DNA of 64,000 bases from a phage. The stretch is from sequence record PZ386959.1; one strand, given 5' to 3'. The notes beneath the pieces are model-generated. The model was not told the DNA's origin, searched no databases, and worked only from the letters and a program-made list of their open reading frames with translations. Position 1 is the first letter of the stretch, and every line of letters begins with the position of its first letter. Made by a program: the position numbers and the translations under genes. Below, piece after piece: positions 1,620-62,123 of this stretch.

Positions 1620-3086
1620 ATGGCAGATATTACAGAAACACAAGAAAGCTTACCACCATTTAGAATGGGTGAAGTAGGTTCTTTGGGTCTGAAGGTTAAG
1701 AATGGAAGAATCTATGAAGAACCTCGTCAGGCACTAAGGTTCCCTGAAAGTATTAAAACTTTCCAATTAATGATGCGTGACCCTGCTGTAGCAGCATCTG
1801 TAAATATTATTAAGATGTTTGTCAGAAAAGTCAACTGGAGATTCGTACCTCCAAAGGGAAAAGAGCAAGACCCTAAAATGCTTGAGAGAGCAGACTTCTT
1901 TAATTCTTTAATGGATGACATGGAGCATGATTGGGCAGATTTTATTAACTCTGTAATGTCATTCTGCACTTATGGGTTCTGTGTTAACGAGAAAGTTTAT
2001 AAGAAGCGACAGGGTAAAAAAGGAAAGTACCAGTCAAAATTTGATGATGGTCTAATTGGATGGGCTAAATTACCAATCAGAAACCAATCAACACTTGATA
2101 AGTGGTATTTTGACGAAGACTTTAGAAAAGTTACTGGTGTTAGACAGAATCTGAGAAATGTTTCACATATTGCTGGAGCAATTAATCTTGGAGAAAGACC
2201 GCTAACAAGAAAACTTCCACGAGCTAAATTCATGCTGTTTAAGTATGACGATGAATATGGAAACCCAGAAGGTCGTTCACCATTACTTAATGCTTATGTA
2301 CCGTGGAAGTATAAAGTTCAGATTGAAGAGTACGAAGCTGTTGGCGTTTCAAGAGACTTGGTAGGTATGCCAAAGATTGGTTTACCACCAGATTATCTGG
2401 ATGAAAATGCAGAACCTGAAAAGAAAGCTTTCGTACAATACTGCAAAACTGTTGTTAACGATATGATTGCTAACGATAGAGCAGGTTTAATCTGGCCTAG
2501 ATATATCGACCCAGATACTAAAGAGGATATCTTTGAGTTCTCATTAGTTTCTAGACAGGGTGCTAAAGCATATGATACAGGTTCTATCATTGACAGATAT
2601 TCCAAGCAAATCATGATGGCATTTATGTCAGATGTTCTTGCTATGGGTCAGTCAAAATATGGTTCATTCTCTCTTGCAGATTCTAAGACAAGCTTACTAG
2701 CAATGTCAGTAGATATTCTGCTGAAGCAAATTAAGAACGTAATTAACCGTGATTTAGTTGCACAGACTTATGCTCTTAATATGTGGGACGATGAAGAACA
2801 TGTACAAATCACTTATGATGATATCGAAACTCCAGACCTTGAAGCAATTGGTTCTTATATCCAGAAGACTGTTGCAGTAGGTGCTTTGGAAGTTGACAAA
2901 GAGCTATCTAACAAGCTTAGAGAGCATATTGGTCTTCCTCCTGCTGATGAGTCTCAACCAGTATCTGAAAAGCTTTCTCCAAATAGCCAAAGCCGCTCAG
3001 GAGATGGTTATAAGACCGCTGGAGAAGGTACTGCAAAGACACCTTCAGCGAAAGACCCAAGCACAGCAAATAAGGCAAATAAATAA
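1620..3086 (+). CDS. portal protein (putative)
   Basis: 488-aa ORF directly after the terminase and before the prohead protease; call is from position and size only. Confidence 0.55.
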   Translation: MADITETQESLPPFRMGEVGSLGLKVKNGRIYEEPRQALRFPESIKTFQLMMRDPAVAASVNIIKMFVRKVNWRFVPPKGKEQDPKMLERADFFNSLMDDMEHDWADFINSVMSFCTYGFCVNEKVYKKRQGKKGKYQSKFDDGLIGWAKLPIRNQSTLDKWYFDEDFRKVTGVRQNLRNVSHIAGAINLGERPLTRKLPRAKFMLFKYDDEYGNPEGRSPLLNAYVPWKYKVQIEEYEAVGVSRDLVGMPKIGLPPDYLDENAEPEKKAFVQYCKTVVNDMIANDRAGLIWPRYIDPDTKEDIFEFSLVSRQGAKAYDTGSIIDRYSKQIMMAFMSDVLAMGQSKYGSFSLADSKTSLLAMSVDILLKQIKNVINRDLVAQTYALNMWDDEEHVQITYDDIETPDLEAIGSYIQKTVAVGALEVDKELSNKLREHIGLPPADESQPVSEKLSPNSQSRSGDGYKTAGEGTAKTPSAKDPSTANKANK

Positions 3087-3586
3087 TGGCTGAAGTTATC
3101 TCTATCTCAAATGCTACACGAGTGCATTCGTATAGGGGTGTCCTTATCATTACTGACAAGTTATCTGTAGAGGCTGGCTCAAGGGTCAGCCTTTCAGGTT
3201 ATGTTAGTGATGGTGGAATCTCTGACGTTTTCACTATTTGCAGGTTACTTGATGCACCAATGAGTGGAAAACCGTTTATTTCAGGAAATTGTAGTGAAAT
3301 TGTTAAAATTCCATTTGACAGTTCATGCCTTTTGGGTGTAAAGTTATATAACTGCGAGAATAAACGTGTCAATGTTAATAGCATTGAAGCCGCTTTCATT
3401 ACCCTCGATACTGCATTTCAATCTCCAATGACAGTTAATAAAGAAACAAACAGACTTGAATACATTTTTTCACAAAATGATTACAAAGTACTTGTCAAAG
3501 GTAAAGTATATGATATGATTGTAAATGTGGTAGATGAATCTGGTAACCATTCAACAGTCCTTAAACAAAAAGTAAGGTTTAATTAA
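3086..3586 (+). CDS. hypothetical head-module protein
   Basis: ORF whose start overlaps the portal stop; no motif recognised. Confidence 0.3.
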   Translation: MAEVISISNATRVHSYRGVLIITDKLSVEAGSRVSLSGYVSDGGISDVFTICRLLDAPMSGKPFISGNCSEIVKIPFDSSCLLGVKLYNCENKRVNVNSIEAAFITLDTAFQSPMTVNKETNRLEYIFSQNDYKVLVKGKVYDMIVNVVDESGNHSTVLKQKVRFN

Positions 3587-3929: not shown

Positions 3930-5276
3930 ATGAGTTCGAATATCTTCAGACTTGCTGATAGATTATTCAACCAACCTTTACTAGCCACTGAATCATTAGC
4001 TCACTCAGCAGCAACTTATGTGAATAACAGATTGCTGGGTGATGTCCAAGCAGCAGTAAACTTTGATAAACCCAAAGGTGAAGCAAGAAGTCTTTTAAAA
4101 GTAAAAGATGACATTGCTATTATCCCTATTATGGGTGGTTTAACCCATCGTATGACATTCATTGATGCAATGTGCACAGGTGGTTTAAGCTCTTATGAAG
4201 GTTTACGTAGAGGCTTTGACGAAGCTTTAGCAGATGAGTCAATTAAGACTATTGTTCTGCATATTGATTCTGGTGGTGGTGAAGCTTCAGGTTGCTTTGA
4301 ATTAGCACGTCACATTATGGCTTCAAGAGGCCAAAAGAAAATTATTGCTTATGTAGATGAGTTCGCTTGTTCCGCTGCATATGCTCTTGCATCTTCTGCT
4401 GAAGAAATTATTGCATCACCAGATGCAGATGTTGGTTCTATTGGTGTAATCATGGTTCATCAGGAATTAACTAAGGCATTTGAAAAGAATGGCGTAACAA
4501 TTAACGTCATCAAAGCTGGTGAGTTTAAAGGTATGGGTTCACCATTCCAAGCACTCTCAGAAGAAAGCAAAGAAAGACTTCAAAAGAGGATTAATGATAC
4601 CTACGCAACCTTTACAGGTTTTGTAGCCGAATCTCGTAATCTCTCTGAAGAAGCTGTAAAGAATACTGAGGCGAATGTTTATTCTGCTCAGGAAGCTCTT
4701 GAACTTGGTTTAATTAACTCAATCATGTCTCAAGATGATTTCTTAAATTACTTACAAGGTTCTGAAGAGGCTCCTGTAAGTTTAAACGTTAACAATTCAG
4801 GTGAAGAAATGACTGAACAAGAAAAGCAAGAACTAGAAGCTTTGCGTCTTCAGGTTGCTCAAATGAAAGCTAAAGAACAGGAAGCTGCTTTGTCAGATTT
4901 GACTAATAAGATTTCTGCTTCTGCTGAAGCTTTTGGATTTGATGCAAAAGAAGCTGCAACGACTATTTTAGGTGCTGGTCTTGATAACCCTCTGAGTGTT
5001 CTGTTTATGAATGCTATGGAAGGTGCTAACCAGAAACTTAATGAAACTATCGCGTCCCACGCTTCTGCAATGGAAGAAAAAGAATCAGAAATTACCAAGC
5101 TGAAAGAAACTGCTGGTGCTGTTCTTGAACATTCCAACGCTATGGAAGAAATGGGTAATGACGGCGAAGCTGATTTGGTTGAAGAAGAAAAAGAACCAGC
5201 TAAGAATGCTTCCGAAGACACCGCTGAACAACGCAAACTGGCTCTCCAGAATGCTCTAAAATCTCTTATTAAATAA
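3930..5276 (+). CDS. prohead protease of S49/SppA type with a C-terminal coiled-coil scaffold-like domain
   Basis: Segment HIDSGGGEASG...DEFACSAAYALASSAEEIIASPDADVGSIGV resembles the S49 peptidase core; the C-terminal third is Ala/Glu/Lys-rich and predicted coiled coil; sits between portal and capsid genes as lambda gpC/Nu3 does. Confidence 0.65.
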   Translation: MSSNIFRLADRLFNQPLLATESLAHSAATYVNNRLLGDVQAAVNFDKPKGEARSLLKVKDDIAIIPIMGGLTHRMTFIDAMCTGGLSSYEGLRRGFDEALADESIKTIVLHIDSGGGEASGCFELARHIMASRGQKKIIAYVDEFACSAAYALASSAEEIIASPDADVGSIGVIMVHQELTKAFEKNGVTINVIKAGEFKGMGSPFQALSEESKERLQKRINDTYATFTGFVAESRNLSEEAVKNTEANVYSAQEALELGLINSIMSQDDFLNYLQGSEEAPVSLNVNNSGEEMTEQEKQELEALRLQVAQMKAKEQEAALSDLTNKISASAEAFGFDAKEAATTILGAGLDNPLSVLFMNAMEGANQKLNETIASHASAMEEKESEITKLKETAGAVLEHSNAMEEMGNDGEADLVEEEKEPAKNASEDTAEQRKLALQNALKSLIK

Positions 5277-5287
5277 GGAACACAATA

Positions 5288-5665
5288 ATGGCATATGAAG
5301 GTTTTACTAAGCTAGGTAAAAGAGAACCTCTGAATGATATCATTCTTTGGGAACAGATTACCCCAACAGGCCACTCTCGTAAAGAGTACACTCCAGTTGC
5401 TTCAACAGAATACCGTGTAGGTGAAGTTTTGAAAGCAGATGGTACTAAAGTTGCAGCAGGGGAAGAAACTCAGGCTGATTCTGTATGTATCGTTAACTTT
5501 TATGCAGACCTGCAACTGTCTTACCACGGTCAGTTGAAAGTCGTTGGTATTTACCGCGACGCAGAACTGAAAGACCTGCTTACTCTTGAATCAGATGTTG
5601 ATGCTGCTGAGGTCAAGAAAGCTCTGGCTGCTAAAGGTATTGATTTCGTACCAACTGGCCTGTAA
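5288..5665 (+). CDS. head decoration protein-like
   Basis: 125-aa ORF immediately upstream of the major capsid gene, with the same high-expression codon usage (ctg/cgt/ggt); call is from position and size. Confidence 0.35.
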   Translation: MAYEGFTKLGKREPLNDIILWEQITPTGHSRKEYTPVASTEYRVGEVLKADGTKVAAGEETQADSVCIVNFYADLQLSYHGQLKVVGIYRDAELKDLLTLESDVDAAEVKKALAAKGIDFVPTGL

Positions 5666-5698
5666 TAACAATAATAAGACATTCTGGAGAATTTTACA

Positions 5699-6805
5699 AT
5701 GTTGACTAATTCTGAAAAAAGCAGATTTTTCCTTGCTGACCTGACTGGTGAAGTCCAGTCTATCCCAAATACTTATGGGTATATTTCCAACTTAGGTCTG
5801 TTCCGTTCAGCACCAATCACCCAAACTACTTTCCTTATGGACTTGACTGATTGGGATGTTAGCTTGCTTGATGCGGTAGACCGTGATAGCCGTAAAGCAG
5901 AGACTAGCGCACCTGAGCGTGTCCGTCAAATCAGCTTCCCAATGATGTACTTCAAAGAAGTTGAAAGCATCACTCCTGATGAAATTCAGGGTGTACGTCA
6001 GCCAGGCACTGCAAACGAACTGACTACTGAAGCAGTAGTACGTGCTAAGAAGCTGATGAAGATTCGTACCAAGTTCGATATTACTCGTGAGTTCCTGTTT
6101 ATGCAAGCTCTGAAGGGTAAAGTTGTTGATGCTCGTGGTACTCTGTACGCTGACCTGTACAAGCAGTTCGACGTTGAGAAGAAGACTGTTTACTTCGACC
6201 TTGACAACCCTAATGCTGACATCGACGCTTCTATTGAAGAACTGCGTATGCACATGGAAGACGAAGCTAAGACTGGCACTGTAATCAACGGTGAAGAAAT
6301 TCACGTAGTTGTTGACCGTGTGTTCTTCAGCAAACTGGTTAAGCATCCTAAGATTCGTGACGCTTATCTTGCACAGCAGACTCCACTGGCTTGGCAGCAG
6401 ATTACTGGTTCTCTGAGAACTGGTGGTACTGACGGCGTTCAGGCTCACATGAACACTTTCTACTACGGTGGTGTTAAGTTTGTCCAGTACAACGGTAAGT
6501 TCAAAGACAAGCGTGGTAAGGTTCACACTCTGGTGAGCATTGACAGCGTAGCAGACACTGTTGGTGTTGGTCATGCTTTCCCTAACGTTTCTATGCTGGG
6601 TGAAGCAAACAACATTTTCGAAGTTGCATATGGTCCATGTCCTAAGATGGGTTATGCAAATACACTTGGTCAGGAACTGTACGTATTCGAATACGAAAAA
6701 GACCGTGACGAAGGTATTGACTTTGAAGCTCACTCTTACATGCTGCCATACTGTACTCGTCCTCAGTTGCTGGTAGATGTTCGTGCTGACGCCAAAGGTG
6801 ACTGA
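5699..6805 (+). CDS. major capsid protein
   Basis: 368-aa ORF after the protease and decoration-like genes; strongly biased codon usage typical of highly expressed enterobacterial genes. Confidence 0.6.
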   Translation: MLTNSEKSRFFLADLTGEVQSIPNTYGYISNLGLFRSAPITQTTFLMDLTDWDVSLLDAVDRDSRKAETSAPERVRQISFPMMYFKEVESITPDEIQGVRQPGTANELTTEAVVRAKKLMKIRTKFDITREFLFMQALKGKVVDARGTLYADLYKQFDVEKKTVYFDLDNPNADIDASIEELRMHMEDEAKTGTVINGEEIHVVVDRVFFSKLVKHPKIRDAYLAQQTPLAWQQITGSLRTGGTDGVQAHMNTFYYGGVKFVQYNGKFKDKRGKVHTLVSIDSVADTVGVGHAFPNVSMLGEANNIFEVAYGPCPKMGYANTLGQELYVFEYEKDRDEGIDFEAHSYMLPYCTRPQLLVDVRADAKGD

Positions 6806-11258: not shown

Positions 11259-19277
<8,019 letters not shown>

Positions 19278-19279
19278 TA

Positions 19280-20467
19280 ATGGCGGTAGGTGAAATTCAA
19301 ATTAGTGCCTTGCCTCAAGCAGCCTTACCAATTGACCTTAGTGATATCTTCCATCTTAAGCAGGGTATTGAGGATAAGAGATGTACTCTTGAGCAATTAC
19401 TTGCTCCACACTCAAGCCTAAGAAATAACCCTCATGGTGTTACTAAAACACAAATTGGTTTAGATAATGTTATTAATGCTCTTCAGTTAGTTGCTGCAAA
19501 TAACTTATCAGATGTTGTTAATGTAGCTGAGGCAAGAGCAAATCTACAGATTATGTCTTCAGAAGAGGTTAATAACCTTGTTCAACAGCATATTCAGGAC
19601 AAGAGCAACCCACACAATACAACTAAGGCACAGGTAGGGTTGAGCAATGTCCAGAACTGGACAACATCGAACCTTTATAACGAAGATGCAGATAAGTATG
19701 CTACAGCAAGAGCAGTAAATAACTTGTACAAGGCTGTTCAGGCTTCTTATCCAGTAGGTACTATCCATCTTTCTATGAACTCTGCAAACCCTTCTACATA
19801 CTTAATTTGTGGAGGAACTTGGGAGTTAGTTTCAAAAGGTAGAGCATTGGTTGGTTATGACTCTGACACAAGACCAGCAGGTTCTGTATTTGGTGCTTCA
19901 ACTGTTACTTTGTCAGTTAATAACATGCCTCAACATTCACACTCCGTGTCTCTTAGTGGTGGTGGTCATGCTCATAATGCAACTGTGTCAATTTCAGCTT
20001 TTGACTATGGAACTAAGACTACCAACTCTTTTGACTATGGAACTAAGACCACTAACACAACTGGTAACCATAACCATGTTGGTAGTGGGTCAACAAGTTC
20101 TGCTGGTGCTCATAACCACAGATTGACCTATGAATCAGGTGGTGGTTTATCGGAAAGACCTGCAATGGTTTGGTCTTCAAGGAATGACCAATCATGGTAT
20201 TCAGCAGATGCTGTCTGTGAAGTAGCTGGTGCACACACTCACTCTTTCAGTGTTACCACTAACACAACTGGTAACCACAACCATACGGTTGGTATTGGTG
20301 CTCACAGCCACACAGTTGGTATTGGTTCACATACACACAATGGTACTGTAACAGTTTCTTCTTCTGAGCATACGCATAGCGGGAACACTAATAGTGTTGG
20401 TGGTGGACAAGCTTTCAACATTGAGCAGCCATCCTTTGTACTGTATGTATGGCAGAGAACAGCTTAA
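19280..20467 (+). CDS. tail fibre protein with C-terminal His-rich collar-type domain
   Basis: C-terminal region has repeated HxH/HxHxH segments (HSHSVSLSGGGHAHNATVS, NHNHVGSG, AHTHSFSV, AHSHTVGIGSHTHNG) and the ending QAFNIEQPSFVLYVWQRTA typical of phage tail collar domains; contains a 30-nt tandem duplication. Confidence 0.65.
   Translation: MAVGEIQISALPQAALPIDLSDIFHLKQGIEDKRCTLEQLLAPHSSLRNNPHGVTKTQIGLDNVINALQLVAANNLSDVVNVAEARANLQIMSSEEVNNLVQQHIQDKSNPHNTTKAQVGLSNVQNWTTSNLYNEDADKYATARAVNNLYKAVQASYPVGTIHLSMNSANPSTYLICGGTWELVSKGRALVGYDSDTRPAGSVFGASTVTLSVNNMPQHSHSVSLSGGGHAHNATVSISAFDYGTKTTNSFDYGTKTTNTTGNHNHVGSGSTSSAGAHNHRLTYESGGGLSERPAMVWSSRNDQSWYSADAVCEVAGAHTHSFSVTTNTTGNHNHTVGIGAHSHTVGIGSHTHNGTVTVSSSEHTHSGNTNSVGGGQAFNIEQPSFVLYVWQRTA
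19999..20058 (+). repeat. 30-nt tandem duplication inside tail fibre 1
   Basis: TTTTGACTATGGAACTAAGACTACCAACTC followed by TTTTGACTATGGAACTAAGACCACTAACAC, encoding FDYGTKTTNS twice. Confidence 0.8.
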
Positions 20468-22980: not shown

Positions 22981-23178
22981 ATGCCTACAATCCTAGCAAT
23001 TCTTCTAAAAAATCTAGGTAGCTTCTTCTGGAAACTCATTTTATCCCTTCTAAGTGAATACATGATTGAGAAAGTGTTCTTTAGGCTTGCAAGATACCTT
23101 GCGAGTAAAACAGACACACCTATTGATGATGAGTTCGTAGATAACTTAGAAAAAGCTTTTAAGGGGGAGAATAAATGA
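22981..23178 (+). CDS. small hydrophobic protein (possible membrane protein)
   Basis: 65-aa ORF with a hydrophobic N-terminal half (ILAILLKNLGSFFWKLILSLL); lies after the fibre genes behind a promoter-like site. Confidence 0.35.
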   Translation: MPTILAILLKNLGSFFWKLILSLLSEYMIEKVFFRLARYLASKTDTPIDDEFVDNLEKAFKGENK

Positions 23179-23546
23179 AGTGGCTAGAGGAAGCTTTTAA
23201 AAATAATATTGGTGCAATTGTAGTTGGTATTTTTAGTGTTATTGGGATGTATACCACGATGCAAGTTTCAAGTGGTAAACAAGAAGTGTCTGTCACAACA
23301 AAGTTACAGCAGCTAGATAATTATTCCAAAAGTAACTATTCAGCTATTCGTGATTTACAGTCTGACATGAGACTGATTCAGCTAGGGATGGAGAACCAGA
23401 AAGTTCAGTTAGAGAATGTTAAGGGTGAAAACGCAAAACTTACCAAAACTCTTGATAAATTCTCTGACAGTGTGAATAATCTGGCTCAATCAGTATCAGC
23501 CCTCCAAGCTATTACTGAGAAGAACACAAAGAATACTGAAAAATAA
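23175..23546 (+). CDS. single-pass membrane protein with coiled-coil domain
   Basis: 123-aa ORF with N-terminal transmembrane segment (IGAIVVGIFSVIGMY) followed by a heptad-like Q/L/N-rich region; followed by a bidirectional terminator. Confidence 0.35.
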   Translation: MKWLEEAFKNNIGAIVVGIFSVIGMYTTMQVSSGKQEVSVTTKLQQLDNYSKSNYSAIRDLQSDMRLIQLGMENQKVQLENVKGENAKLTKTLDKFSDSVNNLAQSVSALQAITEKNTKNTEK

Positions 23547-23552
23547 AATTTT

Positions 23553-23580
23553 AAGGCTCCTTTTGACGGGAGCCTTTTTT
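23553..23580. terminator. bidirectional rho-independent terminator between convergent blocks
   Basis: Stem AGGCTCC / GGAGCCT flanked by A-run upstream and TTTTTTGTTTT downstream, so functional in both orientations; sits between ORF 23175-23546 (+) and thyA (-). Confidence 0.65.
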
Positions 23581-30607: not shown

Positions 30608-30913
30608 TCATTTTCTCTTACTGCCAATCTCTACGTCGATAACTTGAACATAACCAGCAACATCAAACTTATGAATGATGCTTTCCACAGTGTAAGTCCA
30701 ACCATCAATGCGAACCAACTCACCTTCTCGTGGGACGATGGGATTACGTTGAGCTAAGGTTGTAGTGGAGTGAACAACATCATAACAATAGATATAGTTT
30801 ACTAGGACTTCCATCGTGAAAACCTCACTCAATAACCGTAGTGTGTGATTGACCATTTTTGCCATAGCTATAAGATGTTGTTGTTTGGGAGTTTGGACAT
30901 CTGACAACAACAA
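30608..30913 (-). CDS. hypothetical protein
   Basis: ORF from the track; an internal Met start near 30814 would nearly remove the overlap with the upstream lipoprotein gene, so the 5' boundary is uncertain. Confidence 0.3.
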   Translation of the reverse strand: MLLSDVQTPKQQHLIAMAKMVNHTLRLLSEVFTMEVLVNYIYCYDVVHSTTTLAQRNPIVPREGELVRIDGWTYTVESIIHKFDVAGYVQVIDVEIGSKRK

Positions 30914-31094
30914 TATCTCTGCTTATAGCATCACCATGTAACTTGTATACTCTGCAATCTTGCATCTCTGGTGGGAGACTGTAAGAAGCATTTTTATCTT
31001 CATAAGAAGGGTTGCAGCCAGATAGAAAAACAACACCAAGCGCAATTACTGCTTTCCACATAATACTCCCCCAGAGACTGTACATTTTCTTCAT
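30825..31094 (-). CDS. putative lipoprotein
   Basis: N-terminal signal sequence ending in lipobox-like FLSGC (MKKMYSLWGSIMWKAVIALGVVFLSGC). Confidence 0.45.
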   Translation of the reverse strand: MKKMYSLWGSIMWKAVIALGVVFLSGCNPSYEDKNASYSLPPEMQDCRVYKLHGDAISRDIVVVRCPNSQTTTSYSYGKNGQSHTTVIE

Positions 31095-55644: not shown

Positions 55645-55670
55645 GAGGCTCCTACGGGAGCCTTTTTAAT
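55645..55670 (+). terminator. rho-independent terminator after nadV
   Basis: Stem AGGCTCC / GGAGCCT with loop TACG, followed by TTTTTAATTT. Confidence 0.65.
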
Positions 55671-59862: not shown

Positions 59863-60411
59863 ATGAAGAAATTGATTCTAGGTTTGTGCTTAATGTTTAC
59901 AGCACACTTATCTTATGCAGTTGACTGCCCAGAGCTATCAATTAGCCAAAAAGTAAACATGTTAAAAGCTTACCAGTATGGTGAGAATAACATGGGTAAA
60001 GGTTGGGGTATCACTCTAGCTGCTATAGCCTTACAAGAGTCAGAGTTAGGTCTGAAGGTAGAGAATAAAAAGACACATGATTATGGTATTTTCCAGAATC
60101 ACTTGAAGACTGTTGTAAAGCGTAACAAAATTAGTCCTAATGTGGCTAAAAAGAAACTCTTAAGAGACTTTGACTATGCTGCAAAGGAAACGCACAAAGA
60201 ACTTGAATTTTGGACAAAGGTGCATGGTCAGCCAAAGTCAAAGAAAACTTTACAAAAAGTTTTAGCATCATATAATGCTGGGTATTCGTACAGAATCCCT
60301 AAAGCTAAAAAATATTCTCAAGATGTCTATAACAACATGAAAGTTATCGCTCAATGTGAATTTGCAACAAACATTTCTAAGGTAAATCATGAAAAAATTA
60401 AGAAAGTTTGA
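59863..60411 (+). CDS. secreted lytic transglycosylase (SLT domain); candidate endolysin or periplasmic murein hydrolase
   Basis: Signal peptide MKKLILGLCLMFTAHLSYA; SLT-like motifs AIALQESELG, DYGIFQ and AYNAG-like LASYNAGYSY. Confidence 0.55.
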   Translation: MKKLILGLCLMFTAHLSYAVDCPELSISQKVNMLKAYQYGENNMGKGWGITLAAIALQESELGLKVENKKTHDYGIFQNHLKTVVKRNKISPNVAKKKLLRDFDYAAKETHKELEFWTKVHGQPKSKKTLQKVLASYNAGYSYRIPKAKKYSQDVYNNMKVIAQCEFATNISKVNHEKIKKV

Positions 60412-61084
60412 TGAAGTACTGTGTCATGCTTATGACTTACATCCTCATGAGTTAGGTCTTGATTCCTGTGTATGGACTCCAGAACAGTGTAGGGATTTTG
60501 AAGACACTGCAAGAGAAGTTGTATGTTCACTTGAAGAGTTTCACACATCAGAGCCAATTGTGAATGTTGTAGATAAAGAGACTGGACAAACTATAGGGGT
60601 AAGTCGTGATAGTTTAGTCATAGTCAATAAAGACCTTGTAGAAAAAGGTAACCTCATCTTAGCAGATATTGATGGTGTTCTTACAAATTTTAATCACGAA
60701 GATTGCTCAACGGAATTGACTGATGGGTCATTCTCACAGTACACTAATCTTCTTGACTCTGTAAGAGCAAAACCAACGTATGTTTTTAGTATTATTGATG
60801 CAATTGCTAATCATGCTGCCATTGGACTCTTGACAGCGAGAGGTGAATCTCAGAGAATACCTACTGAGATGTTTTTAAGGCATAACATAGAGCATGATTA
60901 CTTGCTTTTTATGCGTGGTTTTGGAACTAACTCTATAAGTGCAGAAAGTTTGAAAGTGAGGATGATTCAGTCTTGCATTCTTCCTTACTTTAATATAGTA
61001 TGCTTTATAGAAGATACAGAGAAGAATGTTCAGAAGGTAAACAGAATCCTTCCACACATTAAAACTATGTTAGTTAAACATTGA
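60389..61084 (+). CDS. HAD-superfamily hydrolase-like protein
   Basis: Motif LILADIDGVLTNF resembles HAD motif I (DxDGT/V); otherwise unassigned. Confidence 0.35.
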   Translation: MKKLRKFDEVLCHAYDLHPHELGLDSCVWTPEQCRDFEDTAREVVCSLEEFHTSEPIVNVVDKETGQTIGVSRDSLVIVNKDLVEKGNLILADIDGVLTNFNHEDCSTELTDGSFSQYTNLLDSVRAKPTYVFSIIDAIANHAAIGLLTARGESQRIPTEMFLRHNIEHDYLLFMRGFGTNSISAESLKVRMIQSCILPYFNIVCFIEDTEKNVQKVNRILPHIKTMLVKH

Positions 61085-61571: not shown

Positions 61572-61600
61572 AGGCTCCTTCGGGAGCCTTTTTCATTTTA
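61572..61600 (+). terminator. rho-independent terminator
   Basis: Stem AGGCTCC / GGAGCCT with loop TTCG, followed by TTTTTCATTTT. Confidence 0.65.
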
Positions 61601-61612
61601 GGAGATTGTTAA

Positions 61613-61960
61613 ATGACATTTAAAGAGTTCTGTCAAGCTACTTTCATAATTGTTTTCTTAGTTGGGGCGGGTGTCTGGGGAGGGTACTCTTACAGAGACT
61701 ACCAAGTTGCTGAAACTGAGCTAAACAATCAAAAGCTCATAAGTGTTGCTAAAGATGCTTATCAGGAAGGATTAGTTACACTGAGCACCAATTACAAAAA
61801 TGATTTGAAAGATGTGCTTGCTAAGAATAAGCACACAAAAGAGGTACTAACATATGAAAAAACTAAGCCAGAGTTTTATAATGTTTGTGTTACTGATAAT
61901 TATGTCAGGGTGTTCAACGAACAAAGTGAACAGTACATTCAAAAACTCCCAAGTAAGTGA
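61613..61960 (+). CDS. i-spanin (Rz-like inner-membrane spanin)
   Basis: N-terminal TM helix (ATFIIVFLVGAGVWGG) then a charged helical periplasmic domain; an embedded out-of-frame lipoprotein gene starts within it. Confidence 0.5.
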   Translation: MTFKEFCQATFIIVFLVGAGVWGGYSYRDYQVAETELNNQKLISVAKDAYQEGLVTLSTNYKNDLKDVLAKNKHTKEVLTYEKTKPEFYNVCVTDNYVRVFNEQSEQYIQKLPSK

Positions 61961-62123
61961 GAGTGATAAGTACACTCAAGAAGAGTCAAGATTCACTGTC
62001 AAAGGTAATACTGGTAGTGATGTGGCAGCAGCCCTTGAGTTTTATCGTGATGGTTTTTACCAGTGCACAATTAAAGCTAATAACCTTATTGACATGATTT
62101 TATTAGGGAATAAGCAGCAATGA
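61854..62123 (+). CDS. o-spanin (Rz1-like outer-membrane lipoprotein)
   Basis: Signal peptide with lipobox LIIMSGC (MKKLSQSFIMFVLLIIMSGC); begins inside the i-spanin gene in another frame and extends past its stop. Confidence 0.5.
   Translation: MKKLSQSFIMFVLLIIMSGCSTNKVNSTFKNSQVSESDKYTQEESRFTVKGNTGSDVAAALEFYRDGFYQCTIKANNLIDMILLGNKQQ

What the first reader, a model, noticed from the sequence alone, without database searches (positions are those of the whole stretch)
61613..62123. Embedded/overlapped spanin gene pair, separated from the candidate endolysin
A TM-anchored periplasmic coiled-coil protein (61613-61960) contains, in another frame, the start of a lipoprotein gene with lipobox LIIMSGC (61854-62123). 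This is the classic Rz/Rz1 overlapped architecture. The only murein hydrolase candidate I see (signal-peptide SLT protein, 59863-60411) lies about 1.2 kb upstream, and I found no clear holin next to either, so the lysis functions appear dispersed.
Basis: partly seen in the sequence, partly recalled or inferred. Interest (0 to 1): 0.35.

Follow-up and report, generated by a model that had tools for sequence, protein, structure and literature searches.

The report
Felix O1-type overlapped spanin gene pair
These are the two overlapping genes a Felix O1-like phage is predicted to use to break the host's outer membrane at lysis; the pair is real but was already catalogued in this phage group, so the finding is ordinary.

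Summary
ORF 61613-61960 encodes a 115-aa protein with one N-terminal transmembrane segment. ORF 61854-62123, in the +1 frame and sharing 107 nt with it, encodes an 89-aa lipoprotein precursor (lipobox MSG|C20, Ser at +2). The window is a Felixounavirus, 97-98% identical in DNA to many Felix O1-like phages. The 115-aa protein is 100% identical to Felix O1 p014, which Kongari et al. 2018 list as an overlapped i-spanin with a 107-bp overlap. Several GenBank records annotate the pair as i-spanin/o-spanin.

In 29 related contigs both frames are intact. The usual excess of third-codon-position variation disappears in the overlap, so both frames are under selection. Distant relatives (Erwinia, Yersinia and phiEco32-like phages) keep the transmembrane segment, the lipobox cysteine and one periplasmic cysteine in each protein.

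The dispersal of lysis genes is real and already published. However, the SLT protein is not the recognised endolysin. That enzyme is a 154-aa T4-lysozyme-type protein encoded outside this window. A published putative holin corresponds to 23175-23546. "Coiled coil" is not supported by prediction, and the architecture is P2-like overlapped rather than lambda-like embedded.

Verdict: already known, low interest. Function has not been tested experimentally for this family.

The parts
61613..61960 (+). i-spanin gene. It encodes a 115-aa type II inner-membrane protein, the ortholog of Felix O1 ORF6/p014.
   Evidence: ORF and translation. phrog_1152 'Rz-like spanin', E = 1e-41. 100% identical to the Felix01 i-spanin in Kongari 2018 Table S1. 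Annotated i-spanin in JLBYU32, radambza and Moogle.
61628..61684 (+). Codons for the single N-terminal transmembrane segment of the i-spanin (residues 6-24).
   Evidence: Kyte-Doolittle maximum at residues 6-24. A hydrophobic N-terminus is kept in all 35 related loci.
61854..62123 (+). o-spanin gene. It encodes an 89-aa outer-membrane lipoprotein precursor, the ortholog of Felix O1 ORF7. It is in the +1 frame relative to the i-spanin gene.
   Evidence: ORF, lipobox MSG|C20, +2 Ser, 70-aa mature part. phrog_4180, E = 5e-51, and phrog_456 'Rz-like spanin', E = 8e-5. Annotated o-spanin in relatives.
61854..61960 (+). The 107-nt dual-coding overlap. It encodes i-spanin residues 81-115, including the conserved F-x-N-x-C...Y...FN motif, and o-spanin residues 1-36 (signal peptide, lipobox and start of the linker).
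   Evidence: Coordinates. The same 107-nt overlap occurs in 29 relatives. It is also listed for Felix01, wV8, Moogle and UAB_Phi87. Diversity is 0.044-0.060 at all three codon positions, against 0.23-0.32 at third positions outside the overlap.
61911..61913 (+). Codon of Cys20 of the o-spanin, the predicted lipid-modified residue.
   Evidence: Invariant in alignment A2, which spans Felixounavirus, Mooglevirus, Kolesnikvirus, Yersinia phage P778 and Kuravirus. Present in the 32 of 35 loci where my script chose the right start codon; in the other three (Kuravirus) it picked an upstream ATG.
61600..61604 (+). Shine-Dalgarno sequence AGGAG of the i-spanin gene.
   Evidence: Sequence. The same motif is listed for Felix01 in Kongari 2018 Table S1.
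61841..61845 (+). Shine-Dalgarno-like GAGGT, 8 nt before the o-spanin ATG and inside the i-spanin gene.
   Evidence: Sequence. A ribosome-binding site is annotated at the same place in Moogle.
61572..61599 (+). Intrinsic-terminator-like hairpin (GGCTCC-TTCG-GGAGCC plus a T run) ending 14 nt before the i-spanin ATG. It equals Felix O1 terminator t5.
   Evidence: Whichard 2010 Table 2. A terminator is annotated at the same place in phiEa21-4.
23175..23546 (+). Context only: a 123-aa protein with one N-terminal transmembrane segment. It is the ortholog of the 'putative holin' of Moogle and JLBYU32 and lies 38 kb from the spanin pair.
   Evidence: phrog_4038, unknown function. Holin function is untested.
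59863..60411 (+). Context only: a signal-peptide protein with lytic-transglycosylase (SLT) motifs, called Vs.1-like in Felix O1 and phiEa21-4. It is not the recognised endolysin.
   Evidence: Pfam SLT scores 18.9 bits, below the 21.3 cut-off. The motifs QES, GIFQ and SYNAGY are read directly from the translation.

Best explanation
The two overlapping genes encode the two-component spanin of a Felix O1-like myophage.

The 115-aa product is inserted in the inner membrane by its N-terminal transmembrane segment, with about 90 mostly helical residues in the periplasm. The 89-aa product is exported, lipid-modified on Cys20 and cleaved by signal peptidase II. Because residue +2 is Ser, the Lol pathway sorts it to the inner leaflet of the outer membrane. 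Its 70-residue mature part faces the periplasm. The two periplasmic parts bind each other, probably through their conserved C-proximal regions, each of which holds one invariant cysteine. The resulting complex is threaded through the murein meshwork. Once the endolysin, which is encoded elsewhere in the genome, has removed the murein, the complexes are free to move. They then fuse or disrupt the inner and outer membranes, which completes lysis.

Shown here: the ORFs, the membrane and lipoprotein signals, selection on both frames, conservation of the pair across distant phages, and family identity with catalogued spanins.

Inferred from lambda Rz/Rz1 and T4 PseT.3/PseT.2: the topology, the complex formation, the role of the cysteines and the fusion step.
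For: - Anatomy: one transmembrane segment, and a lipobox with +2 Ser.
- PHROG 'Rz-like spanin' matches for both proteins: 1e-41 and 8e-5.
- The i-spanin is 100% identical to the Felix01 entry in Kongari 2018. That entry is classed 'ovl', with a 107-bp overlap, in the JH2 i- and o-spanin families.
- The pair is annotated i-/o-spanin in JLBYU32, radambza, Moogle and many others.
- All 35 IMG/VR loci keep both ORFs intact. The 29 closest have identical lengths and overlap.
- The third-position excess of variation is lost only in the overlap.
- Invariant across Ounavirinae, Yersinia phage P778 and Kuravirus: i-spanin Cys92 and FN; o-spanin Cys20-Ser-Thr, Cys71 and E..D...C....N.L.
- In Yersinia phage P778 the homologous pair lies directly downstream of the gene annotated as endolysin.
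- In Felix O1, ORF6 is transcribed with its maximum at 25 min. The lysin gene ORF35 is in the same class.
- Only one other clear lipoprotein ORF exists in the window, and I saw no transmembrane partner next to it.
Against: - I found no experimental test of this family. The genome and survey papers I read report none, and the literature search was not exhaustive.
- No match to the Pfam Rz (Phage_lysis) or Rz1 models.
- No BLASTP similarity to T4 PseT.3/PseT.2 beyond the signal peptide.
- The o-spanin has no proline at all, unlike lambda Rz1. Pepcoil predicted no coiled coil in the i-spanin.
- Position -3 of the lipobox is Met, outside the strict [LVI] consensus.
- The pair sits behind a terminator, in a region transcribed in the direction of the early genes and far from the endolysin and the putative holin.
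Confidence: 0.9

Rival explanations
1. The pair is a membrane-protein/lipoprotein system with a role other than lysis. Examples would be superinfection exclusion or receptor masking, as with T5 Llp or T4 Imm/Sp. On this view it only resembles a spanin in its targeting signals.
For: - It is not in a lysis cassette. It lies among middle-expressed genes next to polynucleotide kinase, behind a terminator.
- No Pfam Rz/Rz1 hit.
- No proline-rich region and no predicted coiled coil.
- The best PHROG for the lipoprotein is 'unknown function'.
- I found no functional test.
Against: - The overlapped transmembrane-protein/lipoprotein gene pair is the diagnostic arrangement of two-component spanins.
- The pair is conserved as a pair from Felixounavirus to phiEco32-like podophages, with one co-conserved periplasmic cysteine in each partner.
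- It lies next to the endolysin gene in Yersinia phage P778.
- No other spanin candidate is seen in the part of the genome held in this window.
- T4 also keeps its functional spanins away from its endolysin and holin genes.
Confidence: 0.06
2. Only the 115-aa gene is real. The 89-aa ORF would then be an untranslated by-product of the other frame.
For: - Felix O1 ORF7 was not tested by RT-PCR.
- Many GenBank records leave it as 'hypothetical', mis-start it or omit it. Examples are the radambza start, the IMEP8 start, and the vB_Si_DR094 phage, for which only the i-spanin was reported.
Against: - The ORF is intact in 35 of 35 loci.
- It has its own Shine-Dalgarno sequence.
- The lipobox Cys and the C-terminal motif are invariant down to 25-39% identity.
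- Outside the overlap, its third-position diversity (0.32) against first and second positions (0.05-0.08) shows purifying selection on this frame.
Confidence: 0.01
3. The signal-peptide SLT protein 1.2 kb upstream is the phage's working endolysin. With the spanins it would form a loose lysis module that does not need a holin.
For: - The SLT catalytic-type motifs (QES, GIFQ, SYNAGY) and a cleavable signal peptide are visible in the translation.
- One record calls it 'putative lysin'.
- Felix O1 ORF3, ORF4 and ORF6 all peak at 25 min.
Against: - The genome has a canonical 154-aa phage lysozyme, gp35, with high-scoring endolysin domains. This is the protein the literature calls the lysin.
- The Pfam SLT score is below the cut-off.
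- The protein is a homolog of the T4-group Vs.1 proteins, whose function is unknown.
- A terminator-like hairpin and two unrelated genes lie between it and the spanins.
Confidence: 0.05

Closest known systems
Felix O1 ORF6/ORF7 (p014 and its neighbour): the 'JH2' i-spanin and o-spanin families of Kongari et al. 2018 (PMC6139136)
   Same: The i-spanin is 100% identical to the Felix01 entry. The lengths (115 and 89 aa), the 107-bp overlap, the 'overlapped' class and the Shine-Dalgarno sequence are the same. The o-spanin is 100% identical to those of Salmonella phages SEP1 and SLAM_phiST56.
   Different: Nothing of substance; this is the same gene pair in another isolate.
Phage P2 LysB/LysC, the prototype of the overlapped two-component spanin architecture (from my own knowledge and the class definitions in PMC6139136)
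   Same: The o-spanin gene starts inside the i-spanin gene in the +1 frame and runs past its end. The first product has a transmembrane anchor and the second is a lipoprotein.
   Different: No sequence relationship was tested or seen. P2 keeps these genes in a lysis cassette with holin and endolysin genes, whereas here they stand alone.
Lambda Rz/Rz1
   Same: The predicted topology of the two subunits is the same. The role is presumed to be the same: a periplasm-spanning complex that disrupts the outer membrane after murein degradation.
   Different: - The lambda pair is embedded, with Rz1 wholly inside Rz.
- Lambda Rz1 has 10 prolines in 40 residues, whereas this o-spanin has none in 70.
- Lambda Rz has two predicted coiled coils, whereas none is predicted here.
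- Lambda has Cys99 and Cys152 in Rz and Cys29 in Rz1. Here there is one periplasmic Cys in each subunit.
- No Pfam Rz or Rz1 match.
T4 PseT.3/PseT.2
   Same: - The sizes are similar (117 and 99 aa in RefSeq).
- The o-spanin has no proline-rich region.
- The genes lie near the polynucleotide kinase gene pseT and far from the endolysin and holin genes.
- rIIA and rIIB are present in the genome.
- T4 PseT.3/PseT.2 complement lambda Rz/Rz1 mutants.
   Different: - The T4 genes are of the 'separated' class.
- The T4 i-spanin has no periplasmic Cys and the T4 o-spanin has two.
- There is no BLASTP similarity apart from the lipoprotein signal.
- The gene order relative to pseT differs.

Membership tests
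Two-component spanin (functional class, criteria of Summer 2007 / Kongari 2018) | The i-spanin is a small protein with a single N-terminal transmembrane segment and a periplasmic C-terminal domain (type II, N-in/C-out). | tested here: met
   One hydrophobic segment at residues 6-24, followed by about 90 hydrophilic, mostly helical residues. Orientation is inferred, not measured.
Two-component spanin (functional class, criteria of Summer 2007 / Kongari 2018) | The o-spanin has a signal peptidase II lipobox and an outer-membrane sorting signal (no Asp at +2). | tested here: met
   MKKLSQSFIMFVLLIIMSG|C-S. It fits the PROSITE-style pattern and +2 is Ser. Position -3 is Met, outside the strict [LVI] consensus; relatives have ISGC, LSAC or TASC. 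LipoP and SignalP were not available.
Two-component spanin (functional class, criteria of Summer 2007 / Kongari 2018) | The o-spanin gene is embedded in, overlaps, or lies adjacent to the i-spanin gene on the same strand. | tested here: met
   +1 frame with a 107-nt overlap, so the 'overlapped' class. The arrangement is conserved in 35 loci.
Two-component spanin (functional class, criteria of Summer 2007 / Kongari 2018) | Required for outer-membrane disruption: a mutant arrests as spherical cells in Mg2+, or the pair complements lambda Rz-am Rz1-am. | not testable with these tools
   No experiment on this family was found in the papers read.
JH2/Felix O1 spanin sequence families (Kongari 2018) = phrog_1152 (i) and phrog_4180 (o) | Significant sequence similarity over the full length to family members. 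| tested here: met
   100% identity to the Felix01 i-spanin. phrog_1152 at 1e-41 and phrog_4180 at 5e-51. tblastn hits to 402 phage records for the i-spanin and 318 for the o-spanin.
Lambda Rz (Pfam Phage_lysis) and Rz1 (Pfam Rz1) sequence families | A match to the Pfam models at or above the gathering score. | tested here: not met
   No Rz or Rz1 family was listed even at E <= 1. This pair works like Rz/Rz1 but is not a member of those sequence families.
T4 PseT.3/PseT.2 spanin families | Sequence similarity to T4 PseT.3 and PseT.2. | tested here: not met
   BLASTP gives no alignment for the i-spanins. For the o-spanins only the signal peptide aligns (E = 0.06). Profile-level comparison was not done.
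Lytic transglycosylase, SLT family (for the upstream protein 59863-60411) | A match to Pfam SLT above the gathering score, and a catalytic Glu-Ser motif. | tested here: inconclusive
   Pfam SLT scores 18.9 bits against a cut-off of 21.3. The motifs QES, GIFQ and SYNAGY are present in the translation. No relative with a solved structure was found by sequence.

The most novel reading that the evidence does not exclude
The Felix O1-type spanin may work by a variant mechanism. Its o-spanin has no proline at all, and its i-spanin has no predicted coiled coil. Each subunit has exactly one invariant periplasmic cysteine (i-spanin Cys92, o-spanin Cys71) inside its most conserved motif. These two cysteines could form a covalent i-to-o disulfide, rather than the homotypic dimers seen in lambda. 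The evidence here does not distinguish a heterotypic from a homotypic linkage.
Probability: 0.15. Interest if true: 0.3.

Novelty: already known. Interest (0 to 1): 0.08.

Why it matters
It matters little beyond correct annotation. The pair has been in the published spanin catalogue since 2018, and the scattered lysis genes of Felix O1-like phages were noted in 2010 and 2015.

It has two practical uses. First, many Felixounavirus records still label one or both genes 'hypothetical', or start the o-spanin at the wrong codon, so the coordinates and the dual-frame evidence can be used to fix annotation. Second, Felix O1-like phages are used for Salmonella and E. coli biocontrol, and their lysis system has still not been tested genetically: the holin is unidentified and the spanin is unverified.

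Tried and rejected
- Pfam and NCBIfam scans of both spanin proteins gave only sub-threshold chance hits.
- Sequence searches against the PDB for the i-spanin, the o-spanin and the SLT protein found nothing meaningful.
- AlphaFold2 on the i-spanin, with a 14-sequence alignment of close relatives, gave mean pLDDT 51.9. It shows helices only, is too poor for a fold search, and does not settle the coiled-coil question.
- The search for homologous proteins returned only close relatives (at least 52% identical), so I did not repeat it for the o-spanin.
- BLASTP against T4 PseT.3/PseT.2 showed no similarity, so the shared neighbourhood with pseT is not evidence of common descent.
- A literature search for the Felix O1 endolysin under the name LysO1 found nothing relevant in the held library.
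- I considered whether the second lipoprotein ORF (30825-31094, minus strand) could be a second o-spanin. I saw no transmembrane partner among the neighbouring ORFs, and it belongs to a PHROG of unknown function, so I rejected this.
- I considered whether the terminator-like hairpin before the i-spanin gene is special. It is the published terminator t5, and similar GGCTCC...GGAGCC hairpins occur elsewhere in the genome, so I treat it as an ordinary terminator.

Full report
**What the window is.** The 2.6 kb around the finding is 97-98% identical in DNA to many Felix O1-like myophages (genus Felixounavirus, e.g. LF110P2, LMP34, UAB_Phi87, JLBYU32). 256 phage records cover at least 80% of it. 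Mapping against JLBYU32 shows that window base 1 lies at the start of the large terminase gene. The window then runs through the structural, replication and nucleotide-metabolism genes, and ends in the rIIA-rIIB-...-phosphatase region that opens most deposited genomes. About 21 kb of the phage genome (JLBYU32 about 7.8-29 kb) is therefore not in the window.

**The observation.** Both ORFs are present at the stated coordinates.
- ORF 61613-61960 encodes 115 aa. It has an AGGAG Shine-Dalgarno sequence at 61600-61604 and one hydrophobic segment at residues 6-24.
- ORF 61854-62123 is in the +1 frame, shares 107 nt with the first ORF, and has GAGGT 8 nt before its ATG.
- The second ORF encodes 89 aa beginning MKKLSQSFIMFVLLIIMSG|C. 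This is a lipoprotein signal with Ser at +2, which means sorting to the outer membrane.
- The mature part is 70 residues, without any proline and with one further cysteine.
- In the whole window, six frames, only three distinct ATG-started ORFs of at least 40 aa carry such a lipobox.

**Evidence that both frames are real.** I fetched 35 related loci from IMG/VR.
- Every locus keeps both ORFs intact.
- The 29 loci from Felixounavirus, Mooglevirus and Suspvirus have the same lengths (115 and 89 aa), the same 107-nt overlap, the lipobox cysteine, +2 Ser and the same periplasmic cysteines.
- Among 28 distinct sequences, nucleotide diversity at third codon positions is 0.23 in the i-only part and 0.32 in the o-only part. 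First and second positions show 0.05-0.08, the usual sign of purifying selection on one frame.
- In the 107-nt overlap, diversity is 0.044-0.060 at all three positions. That is expected only if both frames are constrained.
- The overlap pairs the most conserved part of the i-spanin (F-x-N-x-C...Y..FN) with the signal peptide, lipobox and first linker residues of the o-spanin.

**Distant relatives.**
- tblastn finds the i-spanin in 402 phage records and the o-spanin in 318. These include Erwinia phages of genus Kolesnikvirus, a Yersinia myophage and phiEco32-like podophages (Kuravirus) at 25-39% identity.
- Alignments A1 and A2 show the invariant residues. In the i-spanin these are Cys92 and the FN motif. 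In the o-spanin they are Cys20-Ser-Thr, Cys71 and E..D...C....N.L.
- In the Kuravirus IMEP8 record the o-spanin is annotated from an internal Met. The reading frame continues upstream to a proper signal peptide with lipobox LSAC.
- In Yersinia phage P778 the homologous pair follows the annotated endolysin gene directly. This links the family to lysis by neighbourhood.

**What is already known.**
- The 115-aa protein is letter for letter the Felix O1 protein p014 listed in Table S1 of Kongari et al. 2018 (PMC6139136) as an overlapped i-spanin. Table S4 of that paper gives a 107-bp overlap for Felix01, wV8, Moogle and UAB_Phi87. The main text places these phages in the 'JH2' i-spanin family (together with phiEco32-like phages) and the JH2 o-spanin family.
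- The same tables give about 66% predicted helix for the i-spanin periplasmic domain, but no Pepcoil coiled-coil segment.
- PHROGs assigns the i-spanin to phrog_1152 'Rz-like spanin' (1e-41). The o-spanin goes to phrog_4180 (unknown function, 5e-51), with a weaker match to the spanin family phrog_456 (8e-5).
- GenBank records such as JLBYU32, radambza, Moogle, Sf14 and SUSP1 name the genes i-spanin and o-spanin.
- The original Felix O1 paper (Whichard et al. 2010, PMC3185647) listed them as ORF6 ('membrane protein') and ORF7 (no function). It showed ORF6 transcribed with a maximum at 25 min, in the same class as the lysin ORF35. It also listed terminator t5 just upstream of ORF6.

**The rest of the lysis system.**
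- Whichard et al. state that holin-lysin cassettes are absent and that, as in T4, no holin gene is adjacent to the lysin gp35.
- The Moogle announcement (PMC4319497) says that in Felix O1-like phages the endolysin, i-spanin, o-spanin and putative holin are scattered around the genome.
- The endolysin is a 154-aa phage-lysozyme on the opposite strand, about 13 kb beyond the spanins (JLBYU32 18962-19426; Felix O1 18691-19155). It is not in this window, and tblastn finds nothing.
- The gene called 'putative holin' in Moogle and JLBYU32 is the ortholog of window 23175-23546. It encodes 123 aa with one N-terminal transmembrane segment and a helical remainder, and sits at the end of the tail-fibre operon, 38 kb from the spanins. 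Its function is untested and its PHROG has no function.
It scores below the Pfam cut-off and is the Vs.1-like protein of T4-type phages, of unknown role.

**Mechanism.** By analogy with lambda Rz/Rz1 and T4 PseT.3/PseT.2, the inner-membrane subunit and the outer-membrane lipoprotein bind each other across the periplasm. They are held in check by the murein layer. After the endolysin has acted, they fuse or disrupt the two membranes.
- The targeting signals, the dual-frame selection and the family identity are shown here.
- The complex, the role of the single conserved cysteine in each subunit, and the fusion step are inferred.
- The pair is not a member of the lambda Rz or Rz1 Pfam families. 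It shows no BLASTP similarity to the T4 proteins. It works like them without belonging to their sequence families.
- The AlphaFold model of the i-spanin is helical but unreliable (pLDDT 52).

**Verdict.** The feature is already described in the literature and in database annotation. Four corrections apply.
1. The architecture is 'overlapped', not the embedded lambda type.
2. A coiled coil is not predicted.
3. The SLT protein is not the recognised endolysin.

Interest is low. The open point is experimental: nobody appears to have tested this spanin family or identified the Felix O1 holin.

Noticed in passing
window 30825-31094, minus strand: This is a second small lipoprotein ORF: 89 aa, MKKMYSLWGSIMWKAVIALGVVFLSG|C with the canonical lipobox LSGC. 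It lies in the leftward early/replication gene block. It matches phrog_902 (unknown function), and I saw no transmembrane partner next to it. It could be an exclusion or envelope-modifying lipoprotein.
   Followed up: partly
window 59863-60411, plus strand: This is a Sec-signal-peptide protein with lytic-transglycosylase motifs (QES, GIFQ, SYNAGY). It is homologous to the Vs.1 proteins of T4-type phages. In Felix O1 it peaks at 25 min, together with the lysin and the i-spanin. The role of a secreted murein-cleaving enzyme that would not need a holin is unexplained.
   Followed up: partly
window 23555-23574, 55647-55662, 61573-61588: There are three hairpins with the same stem, GGCTCC...GGAGCC, where 0.01 would be expected by chance. 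One follows the putative holin gene and one precedes the i-spanin gene. In Felix O1 the hairpin after the lysin gene (t35) has the same stem and loop as the one before the spanins (t5). They are probably just strong terminators, but all three lysis loci are flanked by this sequence.
   Followed up: partly
L008 (Escherichia phage vB_EcoP_IMEP8, NC_070993) 3266-3439; L002 (radambza, MN850639) 6102-6323: The o-spanin genes in these records are annotated from internal start codons, which removes the signal peptide and lipobox. The reading frames extend upstream to proper lipoprotein signals (…MSLSAC in IMEP8, …IIMSGC in radambza).
   Followed up: yes
L009 (Yersinia phage vB_YenM_P778, PP693300), about 2760-3270: Only an 'O-spanin component' is annotated here. 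An unannotated i-spanin homolog (MFTSLQAKLIML…, 121 aa) lies just downstream of the endolysin gene and overlaps the o-spanin frame.
   Followed up: partly
window 22981-23178, plus strand: This 65-aa ORF has a hydrophobic N-terminal half (phrog_402, unknown function). It lies immediately upstream of the putative holin and overlaps it by 4 nt. It could be a holin partner or antiholin, or the true holin.
   Followed up: no
window 60389-61084 with 61613-62123; compare L047 (T4) 4003-5782: In this phage and in T4 alike, the spanin genes lie within about 0.5 kb of the polynucleotide kinase gene pseT, although the spanin proteins show no sequence similarity and the gene order differs. This may be coincidence or the remnant of an old shared module.
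   Followed up: partly
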